Source: Prochlorococcus sp. AG-402-P18 (lineage in GTDB: Bacteria > Cyanobacteriota > Cyanobacteriia > PCC-6307 > Cyanobiaceae). Taken from it: a stretch of DNA of 64,000 nucleotides. Shown one piece after another: positions 9,552 through 49,522 of this stretch (the stretch's first letter is position 1; each line of letters starts with the position of its first letter). Location: NCBI GenBank assembly GCA_003216275.1, contig QCJC01000001.1, positions 192,787 to 256,786 of the forward strand, in the 5' to 3' direction. The notes beneath the pieces were generated by a model. The model did no database searches, was not told the origin of the DNA, and saw only the letters and a list, made by a program, of their open reading frames with translations. The position numbers and the translations under genes were made by a program.

Positions 9552-11222
9552 TTATATTTGATCGGTTGTAGCTCCTTGGCTTGATGAACTTACTAACCTG
9601 GAATACTTCCCAAGAATGCCAGTTTTATATCGAGGTTTTGGCCTCTCCCATTTCTCTTTCCGTTTAGCTAATTCTTCCTCCTTAACATTTAATTGAATTA
9701 ACAATTTATTTGCATCAACGGTGATACTGTCACCTTCCTGTACTAATCCAATTGTTCCTCCAACGGCAGCTTCTGGTGCTACGTGGCCAACAACTAATCC
9801 ATATGATCCTCCACTAAATCGACCATCAGTAATTAAGGCAACCTGTTCTCCTAATCCTTGACCCACAATCGCTGACGTTGGAGAGAGCATCTCCCTCATA
9901 CCCGGTCCCCCTACAGGGCCTTCGTATCTAACAACTACTACATCTCCAGCCTTGACTTTATTGTCAAGAATGGCAGTTAAGCATTCTTCCTCACTTTCAA
10001 ATACTCTTGCAGGACCGGTTAAAACCGGCGTCTTAACACCACTGATTTTTGCAACACTTCCTTCACTAGCTAAATTTCCTTTAAGAATAGCTAAATGTCC
10101 TTTTTTATAAATAGGGTTTGAAATTGGTCTAATGACATCTTGATTCTCTTTGGGTTTTGAGGGGATATCTCTAAGAACTTCTTTAAGTGTTTTCCCTTCA
10201 ATAGTTTGGCATTCTCCATGTAGCAATCCAGCATTGAGGAGTATTTTCATTACTTGAGGAATCCCCCCTGCTTGGTGTAAATCGACAGTTACATATTTCC
10301 CGCTTGGTTTGAGATCGCAAATCACTGGAACAGTTTGCCTTATCCGTTCAAAGTCATCGATTGTTAGATCAACTCCGGCAGTCCTAGCAATAGCAAGTAG
10401 GTGAAGAACCGAATTAGTTGAGCCACCAACAGCCATGATGACACTGATTGCATTTTCAAATGCTTTTTTTGTTAGTAAATCTAATGGCCTTATGTTGTTC
10501 TTAACTGCTTTAACCAGTACCTGGGCACTTTTAGCAGCGTTTTCAGCTTTTTCATCGTCAACAGCAGCCATTGTTGAACTAAATGGCAAACTAAAACCCA
10601 TTGTTTCGATTGCTGCAGACATTGTGTTTGCAGTAAACATACCCCCGCAACTACCTGGCCCAGGGATGGCATTTTTCTCTACTGCAATTAGACGTTCTTC
10701 GTCAATTTTTCCGCTTGTTAATTGACCGACAGCCTCGAATGAACTGACTACGGTTAAATCGCAACCGTCTAATTTCCCAGGCTTAATTGTTCCTCCATAA
10801 ACGAAAATAGAAGGTATGTTCATTCTTGCCATTGATAACATTGCCCCAGGCATATTTTTGTCGCATCCACCAATAGCTAATACACCATCCATGCTTTGAG
10901 CATTGCAAGCTGTTTCGATTGAATCTGCAATAACTTCTCGTGAAACTAATGAATATTTCATTCCTTCTGTTCCCATGGATATACCATCACTAACAGTTAT
11001 GGTTCCAAAAGTTTGAGGCATTGCACCAGCCTCTTTTAAAGCCGCTTCTGCTCTATTCGCTAGATCCATTAATCCCATATTGCATGGAGTAATTGTGCTG
11101 TGTCCATTAGCAATACCAATAATTGGTTTATTAAAGTCATTGTCGTCAAAACCAACCGCCCTTAGCATTGCTCTGTTCGGTGAACGTTGAATGCCTTGTG
11201 TTATCGCATTTGATCTAAGCAT
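9552..11222 (-). CDS. ilvD: Dihydroxy-acid dehydratase
   Basis: [36 protein letters not shown]. Confidence 0.97.
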
Positions 11223-11255
11223 TTGATTTCTATTAAATTGTTTAGTGAATCAGAA

Positions 11256-11555
11256 TTAATTTGAGGATCCTAGGTCTTCTAACTGTTTCCGAACGTCTGC
11301 AATTGCAGAATTAAGCTGTTCTACACGTTGTTCAAGTTGCTCATTAGTTTGATTCCCTAGAGAATCAGACGCTAATTCAGTTGCCTCTGAACCATCTTGA
11401 ATCCTTGGTGCATAAAGCATTGCTTTCTGCTTTCTAGTCTCTTGCCTTCTCTCGGCCTCTGAGAGTAACCACCAAGCTAGGCCTGCAGCTCCAAGCACAG
11501 CACCACTAATTAATGATGCCAAACTTCCTGAATTTGAATCTCGGTATTGGCTCAT
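11256..11555 (-). CDS. Hypothetical membrane-anchored coiled-coil protein
   Basis: N-terminal TM (LISGAVLGAAGLAWWLL) and C-terminal heptad repeat. Confidence 0.7.
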   Translation of the reverse strand: MSQYRDSNSGSLASLISGAVLGAAGLAWWLLSEAERRQETRKQKAMLYAPRIQDGSEATELASDSLGNQTNEQLEQRVEQLNSAIADVRKQLEDLGSSN

Positions 11556-12801: not shown

Positions 12802-13854
12802 ATGAGCGATAGTCGTCTACCAGTAACAGTAGTTACAGGATTCTTAGGTTCTGGCAAAACAACACTATTGAGACATCTTTTAAGTGAAGGACATCAACGT
12901 CTAGCTGTAGTTGTTAATGAATTTGGAGAAGTAGGCTTAGATGGAGATCTTCTTAAAAACTGTGGATTTTGCCCTGAGGATGAAGTAGATGAAAGAATAG
13001 TTGAATTGAATAATGGTTGTTTGTGTTGCACTGTTCAAGAGGACTTCCTTCCTGCAATGGAAGCTTTGCTCCTTAGATCAAATCAACTCGATGGAATTAT
13101 TATTGAAACCAGTGGTCTTGCTTTTCCAAAACCTTTACTTCAAGCTCTTAATTGGCCTGCAATAAGAAGTAAGGTTTTCATTAATGGAGTCGTAACTTTA
13201 GTTGATGGAGATGCTCTCTCAAATGGAAGTCCAGTGGGTGACTTGAAAAGTATTAATGAACAAATAAAAAATGATAAGAGTATTGATCATTTAACCTCTA
13301 TATATGAGCTTTTTAGAGATCAATTGATCTCTGCTGATCTTGTTCTCATTAGTAGGTCTGATTTGCTCTCTGCAAAAGATTTTTCATTGGTTAGGGATGA
13401 GGTGAAAGACAAAGGAAACTCCATTACTAATATTTTGCCCATATCTAATGGGAAAATTGAACCTTCATTAATTCTCGGTATTCGTAATGAAGAAAATAAT
13501 TTTTCGCATCTAGATCAAAATGACCATGACCATGACCATGACCATGACCATGACCATGACCATCTCGATGTAATTAGTGAGCATTTAAGATTGGAAACCT
13601 CAATTAACCAAGAAGTTTTAAAAGAGATACTTGTGAGCCTTGTCCCGAAATATCAAATTCTTCGAATAAAAGGCAGATGCTGGATTGAAGGTAAAGATTT
13701 GCCCCTTCAGATCCAAATGGTTGGATCTCGATTTAATTCATGGTTTGAGATTGCGCATGATGCTGCTTGGAAACCATCTAAATCTGGAATTGATTTAGTC
13801 TTTTTGAGCTTGAGCCCCGGAGTTAAAGAAGCTTTTAAGCTTCGTTTTAATTAA
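12802..13854 (+). CDS. cobW: CobW/COG0523 metal chaperone GTPase
   Basis: GFLGSGKTT, NEFG, NGCLCC, ETSGLA, His/Asp-rich insert. Confidence 0.9.
   Translation: MSDSRLPVTVVTGFLGSGKTTLLRHLLSEGHQRLAVVVNEFGEVGLDGDLLKNCGFCPEDEVDERIVELNNGCLCCTVQEDFLPAMEALLLRSNQLDGIIIETSGLAFPKPLLQALNWPAIRSKVFINGVVTLVDGDALSNGSPVGDLKSINEQIKNDKSIDHLTSIYELFRDQLISADLVLISRSDLLSAKDFSLVRDEVKDKGNSITNILPISNGKIEPSLILGIRNEENNFSHLDQNDHDHDHDHDHDHDHLDVISEHLRLETSINQEVLKEILVSLVPKYQILRIKGRCWIEGKDLPLQIQMVGSRFNSWFEIAHDAAWKPSKSGIDLVFLSLSPGVKEAFKLRFN
13522..13563 (+). repeat. (GACCAT)7 perfect tandem repeat encoding (DH)7
   Basis: Directly visible inside cobW. Confidence 0.97.
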
Positions 13855-42082: not shown

Positions 42083-43420
42083 TTATATTAAAATTAGGAT
42101 CAGACTTATAGGAAATAATAATCTTAATAATAACTTAATTAAGATTATTCTGTTGTTTTTAATAGCCATATTTGGATTCTCTGGTGGGTATAGCATTCCT
42201 CTATCATCATGAACAGAATTAGTTAGTGAATTAGTAGGATGCAAATCCCATGGCTTTTCTTTGTTTAATGCATTTTGTAGCCAGTCCCAGTAATATTGAA
42301 CCATTTTATCTTCTCCCAATAATTTAACATTATCTTTTTGGATATAACCCATTTGTTCATTAAATGTTTGTGTCTTTAAGACTAAATAATCTTCAGAGAA
42401 TATTTTATAGAATGTTTTACGCTGCAAATGGCTAAATAAAACAAGGCTGGTAAATAATTTATTTTTTAGGAATTTTCTATAATGTCTTACTATAACTCTT
42501 GCCTTATTATTTCCTAGTGGGATATGATCCAAAACTTGTATATATCGAGTACTTTCAGGTGAACCTTTATATATAAAGATTCTGCCAGGAGGTACAAACT
42601 TTATTCTGATAAACTCTTCTTGGCCATTTGTTTTATATGAATATATACTCTCTAATTGCCTATTATCCCTTTTTATTTTTTGATTGAAACTTGTTATTGT
42701 ATTTCTATTTACGTTTTTGTCTGGAATTGTATCTCCATGCATCCAAAATACATGTAATATATCAAGGTGATTTTCAATAATTCTTGCCCAGTCTGCTTTA
42801 AAATCAACATATACTTCCTCATACTCATATTCCAAAGAAGGAAATCCGTATGAGTCTGGAAGTAAACTATTTAACGAGGATTTAATTTGAAAGTCTTCAA
42901 TATTAGCAAGAGGTGTTCCTGTATAATAAATATAAATATACCCTTCTTTCTCTATACATGGATATTGAAGTAGCTTAATACTTTTTGCGTAATTATCGTA
43001 ATTCGAGTCAATAATATGTTCACAAGTGATCCTATCTAGGTTAGTGCAATTGCCTTGAGATGAAAATCTTGCTCCATGATAAGGACAAACAAGTTGTCCG
43101 TTTATTACTTCACCTCCTAAGAATGACGCTCCTCTATGAGGGCATACATCTTTTACACATCGCACTATATCTTCCCTGTCTCGATATAAAACAAGTGGTT
43201 CATTATAGAGTGTGAAGAAATATGGTTTGCCTTGCTTTATCGAATCGCTTCCAGAGACTGAATACCAACCTAATAATCCATTTGATAGTTGATTTGATGG
43301 CTTTGAAGCAGTATTTTCGAGCTCATTTAAATTTTTATTCTCATTAAAATTAGATCTAATGAGATTAGTAGTCTCATATTCAAATGATTTATTAATTTTT
43401 TCTTCTTTTTCTTCGTTCAT
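42083..43420 (-). CDS. cao: Rieske non-heme oxygenase, Prochlorococcus-type chlorophyllide a oxygenase
   Basis: Rieske CPHRG...CPYHG; mononuclear Fe ENHLDILHVFWMH; position near ferritin matches the known Prochlorococcus cao locus (recalled). Confidence 0.75.
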   Translation of the reverse strand: MNEEKEEKINKSFEYETTNLIRSNFNENKNLNELENTASKPSNQLSNGLLGWYSVSGSDSIKQGKPYFFTLYNEPLVLYRDREDIVRCVKDVCPHRGASFLGGEVINGQLVCPYHGARFSSQGNCTNLDRITCEHIIDSNYDNYAKSIKLLQYPCIEKEGYIYIYYTGTPLANIEDFQIKSSLNSLLPDSYGFPSLEYEYEEVYVDFKADWARIIENHLDILHVFWMHGDTIPDKNVNRNTITSFNQKIKRDNRQLESIYSYKTNGQEEFIRIKFVPPGRIFIYKGSPESTRYIQVLDHIPLGNNKARVIVRHYRKFLKNKLFTSLVLFSHLQRKTFYKIFSEDYLVLKTQTFNEQMGYIQKDNVKLLGEDKMVQYYWDWLQNALNKEKPWDLHPTNSLTNSVHDDRGMLYPPENPNMAIKNNRIILIKLLLRLLFPISLILILI

Positions 43421-43611
43421 AGACCAACAGCACTTTTATTGAGATGAAAATTGTCTCATTAAAAGAGTATTCTCCTGAATTGATAAATACTAAAAAAAAA
43501 TAGCACCTAATGCCTTCTAGAATCGATTAAATTTACATAAAAAAACTTGTATCTTGATTAGTTCATCTAGATACCGCTTCCATGGCTATTATGTCTTCTG
43601 AACCTATTTGC

Positions 43612-43803
43612 CTAAAGGCTTTTGGGAGAAAACTCAATGCTTTCTAGGAATTCAGATGCTTCCGTGATATTATTGCAAAATTTACATGTACCTAGGTAAC
43701 AACCTAGGTATCTCATGAAAGAGGATTTACCTCCAGTCAGGTGGTATTTATGAATTGTTCCTCCTTGAGGAGTAGCTCTTACAAGTTGAGGTAATGCAGC
43801 CAT
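43612..43803 (-). CDS. Small conserved hypothetical protein
   Basis: RATPQGGTIHKY...RYLGCYLGTCKFC motif. Confidence 0.7.
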   Translation of the reverse strand: MAALPQLVRATPQGGTIHKYHLTGGKSSFMRYLGCYLGTCKFCNNITEASEFLESIEFSPKSL

Positions 43804-43924
43804 TAATAAAATCCTTTTCTTTAATTTGCTTTTAATATCAGTTCAAAGCAATAGGTAGATTTACCAAACAAATAGGAGCCATTAGCTTTTATGGCATTTG
43901 ATTATAGATAGGAGAATAAAATAA

Positions 43925-44095
43925 CTAGTCGGTATATCCATCATCATCTTCAGAATTAATTATTCGTGGAGTATTCTTTATATGTTCATCCCATGGATGA
44001 ACGTAAGAATCTTTATCTGAATAAACTTCACTTTTAAGTTCCTCTAGTAAATTCTCGAAATCTTTAATAATCCTTTTTAAATTGTCCTTTTTCAT
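43925..44095 (-). CDS. Small hypothetical protein (56 aa, not in ORF track)
   Basis: Manual translation MKKDNLKRIIKDFENLLEELKSEVYSDKDSYVHPWDEHIKNTPRIINSEDDDGYTD*. Confidence 0.7.
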   Translation of the reverse strand: MKKDNLKRIIKDFENLLEELKSEVYSDKDSYVHPWDEHIKNTPRIINSEDDDGYTD

Positions 44096-44459
44096 TTAGT
44101 TACCTGTTGATTTTATGAAATTATTTTTATTATAATAAACTTTTTTGCATTTCCTTTTTTTTAGATTTAATTCTGAACTTTAGCGGGTTAATCTTCATGA
44201 TTTTAAATGTTGTTTTAATTAAAGCTCTTTTAAAAGAAATAATCTTAAATATAATCATAATAAAAACAATTGATACCGATATAGTATCGTGCAATTATAA
44301 AAGGTTTAAATAATCTCCCTATCCTTTTTGATGACTTTGGCATAAATTATGTAAACTTGCTTTCCGAATTAATGTATAGTGAAGTTTTAAGAAGGTATTT
44401 GAACGTTTATTACGGGAATTTCTTGTGTTGTTTTTACTAAGTAATTAAGCTAGAATAGA

Positions 44460-44541
44460 ATCAGTTAATTTTAAATAAAGTCTACCTCTGATTGATCTTA
44501 AGTGAATATACTTTCCCTTGGATTATTCCAGGGGTTTTTTT
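44460..44541 (+). ncRNA. Candidate small RNA
   Basis: TAGAAT -10 at 44451-56, 5' stem AATCAG/CTGATT, strong terminator; no plus-strand ORF upstream. Confidence 0.45.
44515..44541 (+). terminator. Intrinsic terminator
   Basis: CCCTTGGA-TTAT-TCCAGGGG followed by T7. Confidence 0.85.
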
Positions 44542-44578
44542 CTCTTTCTTATTAATTATTAGTGATGTAAATGTAAAC

Positions 44579-44809
44579 AATTTTATTAATGTTATTTCTT
44601 CTAATAGTGATTTTCTTTCTGCCAATATTGAGTCAAAAGGGATGTTTTTACGAATTTAGGTTGATCTTTCCAATCCCATGATGATTAATTAACTTGATTG
44701 TTAAAAAAACAATTGCTTTATTGCACTAAAAAAGCACAGTGCTTGACTGAGCTTTTTATATGGTGGCGGGGGGGAGATTTGAACTTCGACCTTCGGGTTA
44801 CTAGCCCGA
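44579..44809 (-). repeat. Degenerate direct-repeat copy of tRNA-Met 3' half, terminator and ~175 bp downstream flank (attR-like)
   Basis: Aligns by eye with 48255-48481 (e.g. aattttattaatgtta, tagtgattttcttt, ccaatattgag, ttgcactaaaaaagc, tggtggcggggg). Confidence 0.9.
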
Positions 44810-44970
44810 AAGCGAATAAATGAAATCCTTTGCCTGTCTATATTTTAGGCCTCCTAATCAAATTTATGGGAGTAAAATGGGTTTTCTTGAAAAATTGGAT
44901 CAAGCTATAACTAGGATCTCTCTTCTTCTTCTCTTTGTTTAAGTTACTTCCTTAAATATAAAAAATACAT

Positions 44971-44991
44971 AAAAAAAGCCCCTGAGGGCTT
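44971..44991 (-). terminator. Terminator downstream of tRNA fragment B
   Basis: AAGCCC-CTGA-GGGCTT with an A7 run (U7 on minus strand). Confidence 0.65.
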
Positions 44992-45000
44992 GGTTTTAAT

Positions 45001-45046
45001 TGGTGGCGGGGGGAAGATTTGAACTTCCGACCTTCGGGTTATGAGC
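45001..45046 (-). repeat. Exact copy of the 3' 46 nt of tRNA-Met (att remnant)
   Basis: Identical to 48432-48477. Confidence 0.95.
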
Positions 45047-45196
45047 TCTACTGTTATAGGGCATAAACCCAGTCTATGACTAGGTTGCAAACATGGGCGG
45101 GGCACACTTTTTTGGGCCGCTGGGGCATAAATAATTGAAAAAAATGTATTGTCTTTGCCCATATATTTCCGCAGCATGTCCAACTTGAATTTTTTC

Positions 45197-45208
45197 AGCC
45201 CGACGAGC
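45197..45208 (-). repeat. 12-nt tRNA-Met D-arm/anticodon-stem fragment
   Basis: agcccgacgagc matches tRNA 48475-48486 and continues the 45001-45046 copy. Confidence 0.65.
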
Positions 45209-45255
45209 GAAAAACCATTTTTACTTCAAGCCTTTTCTTTGTGATTATTCCATCT

Positions 45256-45280
45256 CTTCCGACCTTCTGGTTGTAAGCCC
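45256..45280 (-). repeat. Degenerate tRNA-Met anticodon/variable-arm fragment
   Basis: cttccgaccttctggttgtaagccc vs tRNA cttccgaccttcgggttatgagccc (22/25). Confidence 0.75.
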
Positions 45281-45383
45281 TAATGCTGTAGGCGAAAACG
45301 AAATTCCAACACTGGATTAAAAAGAGGACGGTATATTTTTTTTGGGGCCATTGGTATATTGAAAGTTATTATTATCTTTTACT

Positions 45384-46019
45384 ATGTTCCAAAATGACAT
45401 TTCATTTGTATATAAGGATATCGAGAAAAATACTACTGATTTAGAAGCAGTTATAAAAAATTTGTTGATTAAGCATTTGAATGAAGGCGTTGCTGCGCCT
45501 TACTTTTATGAATGGGAACTTGATAAATTGAGTGGGCAATTACCTTCTAGTTGGACCTTAGATATTAATGAAAAGCTAGATGTTCCTGATGAGAAAATAA
45601 GATTAACTATAGTTAATGCTTATTTTGAAGCTGAACGTCATTTTAAAGGTTATTTGGATGAATTTGAAGATTCAGATGTGAGATTAATTGCTGAACCAAT
45701 TGGTGTTATTGATCTTACTGGTGAAGAAAGTGAAAGTATAATTGCCATAACAGATATTGAAGCTCCTTATGATGAAGAAAATGCTAAAGATTTACTAGAG
45801 CTATCAGGTGCTTTTGGAGAATCTCCAATCAAGATATCAGTAACCCCTGGCAGTAAATATTGGGATAGTGCCATTGATGGAGCTCTTACATTTTCAGACC
45901 TCTTTAAGGATGATAATGAGTGGAAGAAATACATTGATAGTGATGACTTTGAATTAGATCAAACATTCTTAAAAGAGATAAAAGATTTTATTAATGAGTT
46001 AGAACTTGACGAGGACTGA
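45384..46019 (+). CDS. Hypothetical, strongly acidic island protein
   Basis: 211 aa; about 52 D/E vs about 19 K/R by manual count; no recognised family. Confidence 0.75.
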   Translation: MFQNDISFVYKDIEKNTTDLEAVIKNLLIKHLNEGVAAPYFYEWELDKLSGQLPSSWTLDINEKLDVPDEKIRLTIVNAYFEAERHFKGYLDEFEDSDVRLIAEPIGVIDLTGEESESIIAITDIEAPYDEENAKDLLELSGAFGESPIKISVTPGSKYWDSAIDGALTFSDLFKDDNEWKKYIDSDDFELDQTFLKEIKDFINELELDED

Positions 46020-46116
46020 TCTAAATAAAAAACTTCTAATTGACCACTGATTCTATTAATATAAATGCACGCATAAAAATTTGCGGTTTAAAATTAAATC
46101 AAATAAATTATAAAAT

Positions 46117-46908
46117 ATGGATTCACGACAAGAGGCCCTAGAAGTTGTACAAAAAGATGGGCTTGCACTTGAGTCTGTCGATGATAAATTTAAATCGGAT
46201 AGAGAAATTGTTTTAGAAGCAGTCAAGTCAAATGGTTGGGCTCTTGAGTATGCGCACGAAACGTTGAAGTCAGATAGTGAAATTGTTTTAGAGGCAGCTA
46301 AAGATGTATATGAATCTTTTGAATATGCTAATGAAAAACTTAGAGCGGATCGTAATATCGTTCTGTTAGCTGTTAAGCAAAATGCTGGTTTCGCACTTCA
46401 GTACGCAAGTGAAACGCTGAAGTCTGATCGAGAAATTGTATTAGAAGCAGTTAGGCAAAATGGGGAATCCCTTCAATTTGCGAATGAAAAGCTTAGAGCT
46501 GATCGTGAAATTGTATTAGAAGCCCTTAAAACTGAAGGCTGTGCACTTGAGCACGCAAGTGAAACATTGAAGTCTGATCGAGAAGTTGTCTTAAAAGCGG
46601 TTAAAAAATATAGTTGTGCACTTGGCCATGCCAACGAGTCATTGAGAGTTGATCGAGAAATAGTGTTAGAAGCGATTAATGCATTTGGGCCGTCACCCCT
46701 TGAATATGCTGATGAATTGCTTCGATCTGATCGAGAAATTGTACTAGCAGCTGTTAAATCAAATGGCGAGGCACTTCAGTATGCCGCTGAAAATTTAAAA
46801 TCAGATAGAGAAATCGTATTAGAAGCAATCAAATCAGACAGGGGAGCGGTTGATTATGCCAATAAACAATTGATAATTGAATTAGAAAAAGAAGGACTTT
46901 TGAATTAA
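46117..46908 (+). CDS. DUF4116-type helical repeat protein
   Basis: About 10 tandem 25-aa repeats DREIVLEAVKxNGxALxYAxExL(K/R)(S/A). Confidence 0.9.
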   Translation: MDSRQEALEVVQKDGLALESVDDKFKSDREIVLEAVKSNGWALEYAHETLKSDSEIVLEAAKDVYESFEYANEKLRADRNIVLLAVKQNAGFALQYASETLKSDREIVLEAVRQNGESLQFANEKLRADREIVLEALKTEGCALEHASETLKSDREVVLKAVKKYSCALGHANESLRVDREIVLEAINAFGPSPLEYADELLRSDREIVLAAVKSNGEALQYAAENLKSDREIVLEAIKSDRGAVDYANKQLIIELEKEGLLN

Positions 46909-46914
46909 TTTATT

Positions 46915-48195
46915 ATGTGTATTATTCCTCTTAATGGAAACTTTAAGGAGTCAATTAAACTTTTTGTTAATAGGCTTTCTAGTTTCTTTATTAATAAGCT
47001 TAAGCCACAAAAAGAAAATAAAAAATCGAATTTATATAACAAAGGTAAAAATAATGAATTAGACAAATATAGCTCAATTAATCTTACACAAGATGAACTT
47101 TTATCAGGGACAACAAGAAGATTAACCTTTAAAAATGAATCTATAGATATAAAAATCCCTGCAGGAATTAAACCAAATCAAAAGCTTAGACTGAAAGGTA
47201 AAGGAAAATTAAGAATTTCTAATGGAGAGAGAGGTGATCTATATCTAGAGGTGAAAATTTCTCAGTCATCTAATAATACAAATAATAATTCTGGTGTCGG
47301 CATTAATGATGATATAAAAGACTCATCTAGCACTAGTGCAGATAGAATAATTAGAATAACGATAATTAATGCGGGCGGAGAATATACTGGCGGAAGTATA
47401 AGTAATAATTCTAGTATTAATAATATAAAACAAAGTATACTTAAAGGAAATATGCAATCAATAATGGATTTTCCTAATGGAGAATCTTTTGATGCCTCTG
47501 ATTATGATGATATTTTCCATTTCTATGGTCCTGAGCTAGATAATTCAGAAGTTTTAATTGAGGAAACATCAGATTTAACAAATAAAAATGATTGGGATAA
47601 AAACTATAAGATTATTTATTCTGGGAAATATCTTGATTCCCAAATTAAACAACATCAAACTTGTAACTCTTTCCCTAGTGATCGACGAATGTTTATTGGT
47701 TTTGCTGCTTTAGAAGTTGGCGAAACTAAATATTTTGATAAAAATGATTTATTGATTTTCAACTATAAACTTGAGAAAAGAATTCATTATTCTGTTAGTT
47801 TAAAATTAGAAAAGGGAGAGAAGTTTAACCCTGGCTGTTTACATGTTGGTTGTTTTTGGGCTGATGAAATTTTTCCAAGTGAATTAGTCCCTGAGTATGT
47901 CCTCTATATACCAGAAAGATATTCTGAAATGTATCGAAAAGAATATCTTAGTAAGAGTGGAGAAGATGAAATAGATACAGGTGAAGATGGATGGGGTACC
48001 TATGAAGGTTTTTGCGAGTTGTTTTTGAGAGGAGAAGACTATCTTCATGATTGTGCTAAGGAGTTGTATAAAAAGATGAAAGATAAACACTCACTTTCTT
48101 TGCTTGATGTTGAGGGTAAGGGTGAATGTGAATATGAATATCTAAGAATTGATGATTCATCAGGAAACAATATATATAAGTCAAAACCTTATTAA
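46915..48195 (+). CDS. DnaJ C-terminal-domain fragment fused to an unknown acidic domain
   Basis: IKIPAGIKPNQKLRLKGKG...GDLYLEV; no HPD motif; N/S-rich linker. Confidence 0.75.
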   Translation: MCIIPLNGNFKESIKLFVNRLSSFFINKLKPQKENKKSNLYNKGKNNELDKYSSINLTQDELLSGTTRRLTFKNESIDIKIPAGIKPNQKLRLKGKGKLRISNGERGDLYLEVKISQSSNNTNNNSGVGINDDIKDSSSTSADRIIRITIINAGGEYTGGSISNNSSINNIKQSILKGNMQSIMDFPNGESFDASDYDDIFHFYGPELDNSEVLIEETSDLTNKNDWDKNYKIIYSGKYLDSQIKQHQTCNSFPSDRRMFIGFAALEVGETKYFDKNDLLIFNYKLEKRIHYSVSLKLEKGEKFNPGCLHVGCFWADEIFPSELVPEYVLYIPERYSEMYRKEYLSKSGEDEIDTGEDGWGTYEGFCELFLRGEDYLHDCAKELYKKMKDKHSLSLLDVEGKGECEYEYLRIDDSSGNNIYKSKPY

Positions 48196-48398
48196 TACAT
48201 AATAGTTTGTTGGCAATAAATTTTTTATGAGGTGTAAGGGCGTTCAATTAAATTAATTTTATTAATGTTAATTCTCCTACTAGTGATTTTCTTTTGCCCA
48301 ATATTGAGCCAAAAAGAACGTTTTTATGCGAATTTAGCAGGCTTTTCCAGTTCCATGATGACTAATGAGCCTATTTTTTTTAATTACTTTATTGCACT

Positions 48399-48427
48399 AA
48401 AAAAGCCCAGTGCTTGACTGGGCTTTT
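48399..48427 (-). terminator. Terminator downstream of tRNA-Met
   Basis: AAAAGCCCAGT-GCTTG-ACTGGGCTTTT perfect 11-bp stem with A/T tails. Confidence 0.9.
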
Positions 48428-48431
48428 AAAT

Positions 48432-48508
<77 letters not shown>

Positions 48509-48559
48509 AAGAATTACAAGCATACATCCTGATGTGAGATAAAGACTAAATTGTTTTCG

Positions 48560-49522
48560 TTATGGAACCTTTAGTTCTCCTTTGACTTCTATATATATAC
48601 CTGGTTTTTGTTGGAGAACTATTTCATCCAATTCTTCGATTGCTGTTGGTGTAATCCATTCTAGTTGTTTAAGCAATTGAATCGCTACAGCGTACTTTGC
48701 TCTTCTTGATCCATCTTCAACCTTTATGGCGAGACCTATACCTTCCCCTAGAAGTCCTATACATTGAATTCCTTCACTGCCTCCTTTGCTAATGATTTGG
48801 TTATGACCTCTCTTTATTAACTCAGAATCAAAATATCCTTTTCCTGCTACGAAATCTGGGTAGGAGGTCATTGCACGAGTAATTTTTTCGAATTCTGGTT
48901 GGTTTGATGTGGATAAATGAGCATACAAAATTGCCATTTGAGACAAACTTAATAGTAATGTTGGAGCACCACAATCGTCTCTCTCTGCGATTAATTCTTC
49001 TACTGGGATTTTTAGTAACTCTGAAACTCTTCTGAATATTTCTTTTTGAAGAGGGTGATGCCCCATTAAATAACTATCTGTATCCCAATTCATTTTTTTG
49101 CAAGTTGCAAGAAAGGCAGAATGCTTTCCTGAACAATTATGTTCTAATCTGCTTTTTTTATTTAGAGGAGTTGGACATTTTAGTTCTTTGATGTCAATAT
49201 CTGCATTCCATAGAAGCTTAAAAGCAGTCCTTGCTTGTTCTGCTGAACCGGAGTGGGAACCACAAGCTAGAGCTAATGTTTTGTTGTCGGCATTATATTT
49301 TTCTGAAGTACCACTAGTTAGAAATGGCAATACTTGAAAAGGCTTAAGAGCTGATCTAATAAAGGTTTCATATTCTGATATACCTGCTTTCATAAGAGTT
49401 CTACCTTTGATATCGCAAATCGAGGCGTGGGCTCTATGAATAGATTCAACACTTGAGCCTCTTTTAACAAGTACTTTCAGACAATTACTACTGTCTGTTA
49501 TTAGTTTGTTTTGTGAATTCAT
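48560..49522 (-). CDS. L-asparaginase II (Rhizobium-type) family
   Basis: RSALKPFQ, ACGSHSG, HNCSGKH, RDDCGAP, ISKGGSEG. Confidence 0.88.
   Translation of the reverse strand: MNSQNKLITDSSNCLKVLVKRGSSVESIHRAHASICDIKGRTLMKAGISEYETFIRSALKPFQVLPFLTSGTSEKYNADNKTLALACGSHSGSAEQARTAFKLLWNADIDIKELKCPTPLNKKSRLEHNCSGKHSAFLATCKKMNWDTDSYLMGHHPLQKEIFRRVSELLKIPVEELIAERDDCGAPTLLLSLSQMAILYAHLSTSNQPEFEKITRAMTSYPDFVAGKGYFDSELIKRGHNQIISKGGSEGIQCIGLLGEGIGLAIKVEDGSRRAKYAVAIQLLKQLEWITPTAIEELDEIVLQQKPGIYIEVKGELKVP

What the first reader, a model, noticed from the sequence alone, without database searches (positions are those of the whole stretch)
45384..48195. Three-gene uncharacterised cargo cassette in the tRNA-Met island (acidic protein, DUF4116 solenoid, DnaJ_C fusion)
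Seen: three co-oriented ORFs (gaps 97 and 6 nt) confined between tRNA-derived repeats, with no core-gene similarity. They contain no TM helices and no recognisable enzyme motif. Known: tRNA-anchored islands in Prochlorococcus carry niche and anti-phage cargo. Inference: a repeat scaffold, a chaperone-derived client-binding domain and a polyanionic protein suggest a protein-recognition system such as phage-protein sensing, a nucleic-acid mimic/inhibitor or orphan immunity. This function is speculative.
Basis: partly seen in the sequence, partly recalled or inferred. Interest (0 to 1): 0.68.

Follow-up and report, generated by a model that had tools for sequence, protein, structure and literature searches.

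The report
Shuffled-domain protein trio in tRNA-Met island
Three genes of unknown function in a variable tRNA-Met island of a low-light Prochlorococcus belong to a rare family whose parts recur next to or fused with each other in other marine DNA, so they probably act together as a protein-binding complex, though what it does is untested.

Summary
Three co-oriented ORFs lie at 45384-46019 (g1), 46117-46908 (g2) and 46915-48195 (g3), with gaps of 97 and 6 nt. They sit between tRNA-Met 3' remnants and the intact tRNA-Met(CAT) at 48432-48508.

- **Site:** it is hypervariable. The flanking core genes lie 1.1-37.5 kb apart in 23 related genomes.
- **g1:** an acidic protein (net charge -33) from a tiny family. 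Its predicted fold is confident but matches nothing solved.
- **g2:** seven DUF4116 repeats.
- **g3:** one DnaJ client-binding subdomain, with no J domain, joined to a 283-aa domain "Y".

The new result is that these parts recur together elsewhere in different arrangements.
- One metagenome contig encodes DUF4116 + Z + LRV repeats + Y in a single protein, followed 45 nt later by a g1 homologue.
- Other contigs fuse g1 to DUF4116 repeats and further domains.
- This genome also has a DnaJ_C-X protein, three g1 paralogues and six DUF4116 loci.
- I found DUF4116 in no other of 41 genus genomes, and g1 in none of 300 family genomes.

Functional linkage is therefore supported. The cassette is not fixed, however: a close relative has deleted g2, and many g1 homologues stand alone. 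The function (defence, DNA mimic or immunity) remains untested. This scan noted DUF4116 arrays with swapped domains in other genomes, but not g1 or Y.

The parts
45384..46019 (+). g1: 211-aa acidic protein (pI 4.1, net charge -33), the founder of a small unnamed family with an alpha/beta fold that has no detectable structural relative
46117..46908 (+). g2: 263-aa protein made of seven DUF4116 repeats, a predicted alpha-solenoid scaffold. It is in frame with g3, separated by one stop codon and two codons.
   Evidence: E 1e-113; 75/153-nt periodicity; phrog_31839 3e-58. It is deleted in relative L007.
46915..48195 (+). g3: 426-aa protein built as a basic N-terminal helix, then one DnaJ C-terminal client-binding subdomain, then an Asn/Ser-rich linker, then domain Y
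   Evidence: (dN/dS 0.31).
47074..47271 (+). g3 aa 54-119: a single DnaJ_C (CTD-type) beta-sandwich, with no J domain, G/F region, second CTD or dimerisation tail
   Evidence: It matches the solved DnaJ client-binding domains 6jzb, 3lz8 and the 6pqe series.
47344..48192 (+). g3 aa 144-426: domain Y, with no Pfam, NCBIfam or PDB relative. It is homologous to the C-terminus of a DUF4116-Z-LRV-Y protein on contig L069.
   Evidence: (32% identity over 288 aa, E 7e-43).
48432..48508 (-). Intact tRNA-Met(CAT), the anchor of the island
   Evidence: It is one of the seven island-associated tRNAs of Prochlorococcus (bioRxiv 10.1101/2020.12.28.424599).
48405..48423 (.). G+C-rich hairpin flanked by an A run and a T run, between g3 and the tRNA 3' end. 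It could terminate both, but this is read by eye and the scan did not call it.
   Evidence: Sequence. A near-copy lies at 44734-44752.
44754..44811 (-). Oldest tRNA-Met 3' remnant. Together with its downstream flank it forms 44545-44787, which is a 76-91% copy of 48221-48458.
44994..45051 (-). Second tRNA-Met 3' remnant (95% identical to the tRNA). tRNA identity resumes at 45197-45208 after a 150-nt insert.
45256..45280 (-). Third, short tRNA-Met-like remnant, about 100 nt upstream of g1
   Evidence: family D5.
44140..48431 (.). Variable island segment. It has no counterpart at the same site in five related genomes apart from tRNA-derived pieces, and it carries no integrase.

Best explanation
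The three genes are cargo left by integrative elements at the tRNA-Met hot spot of a low-light (LLI-type) Prochlorococcus. No integrase remains, so they are now passive island genes. They are probably co-transcribed, given the 97-nt and 6-nt gaps. They encode soluble, non-enzymatic parts of one protein-protein recognition assembly. In this reading, g2 (a DUF4116 alpha-solenoid) is the scaffold. g3 uses a client-binding beta-sandwich borrowed from DnaJ as an adaptor that carries head domain Y. g1 is a constant acidic partner subunit. Shown: these parts belong to a lineage-restricted domain-shuffling network. g1, DUF4116, LRV repeats, the DnaJ CTD and the interchangeable heads X, Y, Z and W recur adjacent or fused in varying combinations. 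Inferred: physical complex formation; docking to unfolded clients or to DnaK through the DnaJ module; and a role in conflict with phages or mobile elements rather than in metabolism.
For: Domain-fusion and neighbourhood evidence:
- L069 encodes DUF4116 x3 + Z + LRV + Y in one ORF, followed 45 nt later by a g1 homologue. The Y match is 32% over 288 aa at E 7e-43, and the g1 match is 46%.
- P0177/L043 is g1 + DUF4116 x3 + X, and P0147 is g1 + DUF4116.
- P0141/L008, from a Prochlorococcus single-cell genome, is LRV + M + g1 + Z.
- This genome's C21 has a DnaJ_C + X protein. Its X is 47% identical to the X of P0177 (E 6e-26), and its DnaJ_C is 38% identical to that of g3.
- L049 has the end of a DUF4116 ORF directly before g1, and L062 has g1 followed by W.

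Chance adjacency is unlikely. DUF4116 passes its cut-off in only 1 of 42 genus genomes, namely this one. g1 was found in 0 of 300 other family genomes.

The genes are under constraint. g3 has dN/dS 0.31, and g1 is conserved with a confident fold.

The island context is supported and by the tycheposon paper.

Conflict-type neighbours of g1 homologues:
- hsdM.
- A conserved C-B-ATP-ligase block, which in L064 is followed by a RecB/Cas4-like nuclease fused to a MkoA-like helicase.
Against:
- No interaction was tested.
- A near-identical relative (L007) has lost g2 and carries a truncated g3. The trio is therefore dispensable or decaying in some lineages.
- About half of the g1 lineages have no network module in the available flanks. 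These include homologues in contigs of 42-48% G+C and in a Flavobacteriaceae bin.
- No match to any PADLOC defence model, and no phage homologues of g1 or g3.
- Some 'fusions' may be assembly frameshifts. L067 and L008 differ in this way.
- The g3 structure prediction failed (pLDDT 32).
Confidence: 0.5

Rival explanations
1. The genes are unlinked island cargo in decay. Three unrelated orphan genes were stacked by successive integrations and rearrangements. They have no joint function, and some are on the way to loss.
For: There are nested tRNA scars and no integrase. In L007, g2 is deleted and g3 is truncated against a molybdopterin-oxidoreductase fragment. Identity jumps from 99% to 91% across the junction, which indicates mosaic recombination. 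Many g1 homologues are solitary.
Against: The same modules recur together in divergent loci, in different orders and fusion states. That is not expected for unrelated genes, since DUF4116 and g1 are otherwise absent from the genus. g3 is under purifying selection, and all three frames are intact.
Confidence: 0.25
2. It is a toxin-immunity-like pair. Y (and X, Z) would be swappable toxic heads mounted on repeat scaffolds, and g1 would be the small acidic neutralising or immunity protein. The extra g1 paralogues would then be orphan immunity genes.
For: In L069 a long repeat protein ends in Y and is followed 45 nt later by g1. C-terminal heads are interchangeable behind the repeats. This genome has three g1 paralogues, one of them solitary.
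Against: g1 is paired or fused with unrelated heads X, Y and Z while staying 46-60% identical, so it is not a cognate partner. It is fused inside the same polypeptide in P0141 and P0177. No secretion or trafficking domain, signal peptide or recognisable toxin fold was found. In the window, g1 lies upstream of the putative toxin gene and is not adjacent to it.
Confidence: 0.1
3. g1 is a polyanionic DNA mimic or anti-restriction protein carried by mobile elements. g2 and g3 would be unrelated passengers.
For: g1 has net charge -33 and pI 4.1. It sits in an integration hot spot. A 55% homologue lies 226 nt upstream of a type I hsdM, in the same orientation. Distant homologues lead operons with a ligase and a nuclease-helicase of the kind found in mobile-element replication modules (ligase and helicase are named as tycheposon hallmark genes).
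Against: Acidity is not conserved in the family. Net charge ranges from -3 to -39, and several members have pI above 5. The model has no fold or sequence similarity to any solved structure, which would include the solved DNA mimics. There are no phage or viral-contig homologues. The recurrent fusion to DUF4116 and head domains is left unexplained.
Confidence: 0.1

Closest known systems
DUF4116 (Pfam PF13475) repeat proteins
   Same: g2 is a full member, with seven repeats at E 1e-113. The family is modelled as an alpha-solenoid (PMC8078820). Earlier notes of this scan, which are unchecked leads, describe DUF4116 arrays in variable islands joined to swapped domains.
   Different: Here the array is a stand-alone gene. 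It is flanked by partners (g1 and DnaJ_C-Y) that elsewhere are fused to DUF4116. The family has no known function, so membership explains nothing mechanistically.
Class II J-domain proteins (DnaJ/CbpA), C-terminal client-binding domain
   Same: g3 residues 54-119 align with the CTD beta-sandwich of solved DnaJ proteins (6jzb, 3lz8, 6pqe series), with the CbpA-type proteins of cyanobacteria and with the genus's own roughly 317-aa DnaJ_C-bearing proteins.
   Different: There is no J domain, G/F region, second CTD or dimerisation tail. The domain is fused to the unrelated domain Y. It therefore cannot stimulate the Hsp70 ATPase as a J-protein does, and at most it binds clients or docks.
Tycheposon-seeded genomic islands of Prochlorococcus (Hackl et al., bioRxiv 10.1101/2020.12.28.424599)
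   Same: The island lies beside one of the seven island tRNAs, a tRNA-Met(CAT). It has stacked partial tRNA copies, unannotatable cargo and large size variation between genomes.
   Different: No integrase or replication module remains, so it is a remnant and not an element. The copy of the tRNA-downstream flank (44545-44787) extends beyond a normal att site.
Polymorphic toxin / immunity loci
   Same: Repeat scaffold, interchangeable C-terminal domains and a small acidic protein encoded next door. The genes lie in variable islands, and solitary paralogues exist.
   Different: No secretion apparatus or trafficking domain, and no recognisable toxin domain. The small protein is constant while the heads vary, and it is sometimes fused into the same chain.
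DNA-mimic anti-restriction proteins (ArdA, Ocr)
   Same: Small, highly acidic, carried on mobile DNA, with one homologue next to a type I R-M gene.
   Different: No sequence or fold similarity, and the acidity is not conserved across the family.

Membership tests
DUF4116 (PF13475) | Tandem ~49-aa repeats matching the Pfam model above its gathering score | tested here: met
   g2 scores 371 bits against a cut-off of 24.9, with 7 stretches. Its DNA periodicity is 75/153 nt.
J-domain protein (DnaJ/CbpA, Hsp40) | N-terminal J domain (PF00226) with the HPD motif | tested here: not met
   Pfam finds only DnaJ_C in g3. NCBIfam DnaJ models match only residues ~48-134, far below their cut-offs.
J-domain protein (DnaJ/CbpA, Hsp40) | Two tandem C-terminal beta-sandwich domains plus a dimerisation tail | tested here: not met
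   Only profile positions 4-76 of 152 are matched. A single sandwich aligns to the solved structures.
Tycheposon / tRNA-anchored island | Location next to one of the seven island tRNAs, with partial tRNA repeats | tested here: met
   tRNA-Met(CAT) with three remnants. tRNA-Met(cat) is listed in the paper. The site varies from 1.1 to 37.5 kb among relatives.
Tycheposon / tRNA-anchored island | Tyrosine recombinase and replication module (an active element) | tested here: not met
   Window 43421-48559 holds no ORF other than g1-g3 and short ORFs. None of g1-g3 matches an integrase.
Known anti-phage defence systems (PADLOC-DB 2.0) | Match of at least one component to a defence-protein model | tested here: not met
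   g1 and g3 have no hits. g2 has only E 0.012 and 0.083 hits.
DNA-mimic anti-restriction proteins (ArdA/Ocr type) | Sequence or fold similarity to a solved mimic, and conserved polyanionic surface | tested here: not met
Polymorphic toxin-immunity system | Trafficking or secretion domain and a recognisable C-terminal toxin domain | tested here: not met
   Pfam, NCBIfam and PDB searches of g3, L069, P0141, P0177, Y and Z find only DUF4116, LRV and DnaJ_C.
Polymorphic toxin-immunity system | Immunity gene immediately downstream and specific to its toxin head | tested here: inconclusive
   This holds positionally in L069. However, g1 also accompanies the unrelated heads X and Z and is fused to them. 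Toxicity was not testable here.

The most novel reading that the evidence does not exclude
g1, the solenoid arrays (DUF4116, LRV), the borrowed DnaJ client-binding module and the interchangeable heads X, Y, Z and W form a previously undescribed, enzyme-free modular conflict system of marine picocyanobacteria. A constant acidic subunit of novel fold would work with swappable recognition heads, possibly recruiting the host DnaK chaperone, to sense or neutralise phage or mobile-element proteins.
Probability: 0.2. Interest if true: 0.8.

Novelty: new variant of a known kind. Interest (0 to 1): 0.55.

Why it matters
Most flexible genes in Prochlorococcus islands have no annotation, and the organism lacks most known defence systems. 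This locus gives an entry point to one such set. It defines a new protein family with a confident fold that has no relatives (g1), and several new domains (Y, Z, X, W). The shuffling network says which parts work together. It also shows that one LLI-type genome has expanded this kit, with three g1 copies and six DUF4116 loci, while 41 related species lack it. If the parts form a recognition complex that uses a borrowed chaperone module, it would be a new way of building specificity in streamlined marine genomes. If not, the locus still documents how tRNA hot spots assemble and erode cargo.

Tried and rejected
- **g3 structure:** the prediction from a 2-sequence alignment failed (pLDDT 32), so I ran no fold search on it.
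- **Domain Y:** the profile found nothing in PDB, NCBIfam, viral contigs or JGI metagenomes.
- **Phages:** tblastn found nothing for g1 or g3, and only two unrelated phages for DUF4116. The g1 profile found nothing in viral contigs. I therefore rejected a phage origin.
- **Known families:** PADLOC, PHROGs and NCBIfam gave no functional hit for the trio.
- **Split gene:** g2 and g3 are in the same frame, so I considered that they are one gene split by a nonsense mutation. I rejected this because the stop is kept as TAA here and as TGA in L007.
- **tRNA context elsewhere:** I looked for tRNA genes or tRNA-Met remnants near g1 homologues in other loci and found none.
Full report
**1. Observation**

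All are on the + strand, with gaps of 97 and 6 nt.
- g2 matches DUF4116 at E 1e-113 in seven stretches.
- g3 matches DnaJ_C only over residues 54-119 (E 3.8e-11).
- g1 matches nothing in Pfam.
- g1 has pI 4.1 and net charge -33.

The only tRNA in the window is tRNA-Met(CAT) at 48432-48508 on the minus strand. Copies of its 3' half lie at 44754-44811, 44994-45051 (95% identical) and 45256-45280. In addition, 44545-44787 is a 76-91% copy of 48221-48458, so the copy includes DNA downstream of the tRNA.

**2. The site**

The flanking core genes are a Rieske/PaO-type oxygenase (42083-43420) and an asparaginase II (48560-49522). Both are present across the genus. The distance between them ranges from about 1.1 kb to 37.5 kb in 23 related genomes, and is 5.1 kb here.

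I aligned the site with five relatives.
- The left flank is conserved up to about window 44137.
- The right flank is conserved from the tRNA onwards.
- Nothing between 44140 and 48431 is shared except tRNA-derived pieces.
- One relative carries two full tRNA-Met copies.

A tRNA-Met(cat) is one of the seven island-associated tRNAs of Prochlorococcus, where integrative elements (tycheposons) stack and decay and leave partial tRNAs (bioRxiv 10.1101/2020.12.28.424599). No integrase or replication gene lies in the segment. The segment is therefore a remnant and not an active element. Genes further left are ordinary cyanobacterial genes: a pcb/PSII-like protein, ferritin, a Crp-family regulator and ABC ATPases.

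**3. The three proteins**

*g1*
- It defines a small family. A word-indexed search of 5.8 billion proteins found about 20 clusters.
- An exhaustive profile search of 1.84 billion representatives found 34 hits, 22 of them below E 1e-10.
- The family is well conserved, with an invariant N-terminal M-x-x-N-D-x-x-F pattern.
- AlphaFold gives a confident alpha/beta model (pLDDT 86, pTM 0.85).
- Strong acidity is not universal. Family members range from net charge -3 to -39.

*g2*
- It is a pure DUF4116 array. That family was modelled as an alpha-solenoid (PMC8078820) and has no known function or solved structure.

*g3*
- Residues 54-119 align to one client-binding beta-sandwich of solved DnaJ proteins (6jzb, 3lz8, 6pqe series).
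- There is no J domain, no second sandwich and no dimerisation tail. g3 is therefore not a J-protein.
- After an Asn/Ser-rich linker comes a 283-aa domain that I call Y. It has no Pfam, NCBIfam or PDB relative.
- Structure prediction of g3 failed (pLDDT 32).
- g3 is under purifying selection against its one close relative (dN/dS 0.31 over 79 substitutions).

g2 and g3 share a reading frame and are separated by one stop codon. The stop is kept as TAA here and as TGA in the relative, so they are two genes.

**4. Is the trio conserved?**

It is not conserved as a fixed cassette. Contig L007 is 99% identical over the g1 3' end and 91% identical over g3. It lacks window 46083-46891, which is g2, but keeps the last ~16 nt of g2. 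This is a deletion in L007 and not an insertion here. In L007, g3 is also cut after about residue 349 by a junction with a molybdopterin-oxidoreductase fragment. g3 was found in none of 41 other genus genomes. g1 was found in none of 300 other family genomes. DUF4116 passes its cut-off in only 1 of 42 genus genomes, namely this one.

**5. The parts do recur together**

This is the main result.

(a) L069, a 3.8-kb metagenome contig, encodes one ORF of at least 929 aa. It contains DUF4116 x3, a domain Z, LRV repeats and domain Y. The Y match is 32% identity over 288 aa (E 7e-43) and runs to the last residue. A g1 homologue (46% identical) follows 45 nt later.

(b) P0177, on contig L043, is g1 + acidic linker + DUF4116 x3 + a domain X. 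P0147 is g1 + DUF4116 repeats.

(c) P0141, on a Prochlorococcus single-cell contig (L008), is LRV repeats + M + g1 + Z. L067 has g1 and Z as adjacent ORFs.

(d) L049 has the end of a DUF4116 ORF directly before g1. L062 has g1 followed by a ~100-aa module W.

(e) Within this genome:
- C21 encodes a 181-aa DnaJ_C + X protein. Its X is 47% identical to the X of P0177 (E 6e-26), and its DnaJ_C is 38% identical to that of g3.
- Next to it lies an LRV + W protein.
- C3 has a 623-aa DUF4116 protein with a stand-alone Z downstream.
- There are three g1 paralogues (C1, C7, C6).
- DUF4116 loci lie on C1, C3, C5, C6, C10 and C17, and several sit at contig ends.

These modules are otherwise absent from related genomes, so repeated adjacency or fusion in different orders is hard to put down to chance. 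The pattern is a constant set (g1, solenoids, DnaJ sandwich) combined with variable heads (X, Y, Z, W).

**6. Limits of the linkage**

About half of the distinct g1 lineages show no network module in the sequence available.
- The Tara lineage (L001-L006) has small secreted proteins upstream. Downstream, 226 nt away and co-oriented, is the start of a type I R-M hsdM.
- A Flavobacteriaceae-binned lineage and several contigs of 42-48% G+C carry g1 alone.
- The C7 paralogue in this genome is solitary.
- Three distant homologues (L036, L040, L064; G+C 0.29-0.48) share a different conserved neighbourhood. It consists of two unknown proteins of about 200 and 235 aa plus an ATP-dependent DNA ligase.
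- In L064 these genes are all co-oriented behind g1. A RecB/Cas4-like nuclease fused to an Upf1/MkoA-like helicase follows them (PADLOC MkoA E 2.7e-55).
- A similar helicase lies 6 kb from the DUF4116 gene on this genome's C17.

So g1 is an autonomous module that often keeps company with conflict-type or mobile-element genes.

**7. Explanation and rivals**

*Best-supported reading (confidence 0.5).* The trio is passive island cargo whose products act together as a non-enzymatic protein-recognition assembly: solenoid scaffold, borrowed chaperone adaptor carrying head Y, and constant acidic partner. A role in conflict is inferred from the neighbourhoods. Linkage is shown by the fusions. Complex formation, DnaK or client docking, and any phenotype are inferred.

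*Rivals.*
- Unlinked decaying cargo (0.25). This is supported by L007 but contradicted by the recurrence.
- A toxin-immunity-like pair (0.1). This fits L069, but g1 accompanies unrelated heads and is fused to them, and no toxin or trafficking domain is found.
- A g1 DNA mimic (0.1). This fits the charge and the hsdM neighbour, but acidity is not conserved and the fold is unlike any solved structure.

**8. Comparison and novelty**

g2 is a DUF4116 member. g3 fails the defining features of a J-protein. The island fits the tycheposon-remnant pattern but lacks the element's hallmark genes. No PADLOC model matches. No phage relatives exist for g1, g3 or Y.

Earlier notes of this scan (unchecked) describe DUF4116 arrays with swapped or borrowed domains in other phyla. 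The DnaJ sandwich in g3 and the RNA-polymerase alpha-CTD on a neighbouring C17 helicase fit that theme. g1, Y, Z and X appear to be undescribed domains.

I rate this a new variant of a known kind: repeat-scaffold proteins with swapped heads in variable islands. There is a 0.2 chance that it is a truly new modular conflict system.

**9. Not done**

Noticed in passing
window 43925-44095 (-): A 56-aa ORF matches PHROG family phrog_878 (E 1e-19). It lies in the conserved left flank that relatives also have (aligned to about 44137), so a phage-like small gene appears to be part of the core flank and not of the island.
   Followed up: partly
window 45047-45196: The second tRNA-Met remnant is interrupted. 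tRNA identity stops at 45046-45051 and resumes at 45197-45208 after a ~150-nt relatively G+C-rich insert with no ORF. Another first-reader note also flagged this.
   Followed up: no
L064:1939-9098; L040:3488-8500; L036:10001-15861: Distant g1 homologues share a conserved block of two unknown proteins (~200 and ~235 aa) plus an ATP-dependent DNA ligase. In L064 a RecB/Cas4-like nuclease fused to an Upf1/MkoA-like helicase follows. The genes are tightly packed and co-oriented, which suggests a candidate uncharacterised operon (a defence or mobile-element replication module).
   Followed up: partly
own genome contig C17 (locus L073:3-18841): An island-like contig encodes an LRV+RCC1 repeat protein (928 aa), a 1347-aa SNF2/DEAD helicase carrying an RNA-polymerase alpha C-terminal domain, a DUF4116 protein, a BRCT-like protein (read by eye) and a RNase_H_2-superfamily (PF13482) domain fused to a MkoA-like SF1 helicase.
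   Followed up: partly
own genome contigs C1, C3, C5, C6, C10, C17: This genome is the only one of 42 species representatives of its genus with DUF4116 repeats over the Pfam cut-off (29 repeat matches at six loci). Three contigs begin or end inside a DUF4116 gene, so the repeats probably break the assembly and more copies may exist.
   Followed up: partly
L006:1168-1275: The gene starting 226 nt downstream of a 55%-identical g1 homologue is the N-terminus of a type I restriction-modification M subunit, judged by tblastn to annotated plasmid genes.
   Followed up: yes
L047 (relative G006) 11210-11286 and 13040-13116: A related genome carries two complete tRNA-Met(CAT) genes 1.8 kb apart at this same site within a 13-kb island. 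This points to tandem integrations.
   Followed up: no
protein P0039: A 664-aa metagenomic protein combines HSP70, a caspase-like peptidase C14 domain and DnaJ_C. This is another case of a chaperone module fused to a non-chaperone domain.
   Followed up: no
L007:1322-1633 (-): In the close relative, a truncated molybdopterin-oxidoreductase fragment overlaps the truncated 3' end of the g3 homologue. This marks a rearrangement joint in island DNA.
   Followed up: partly
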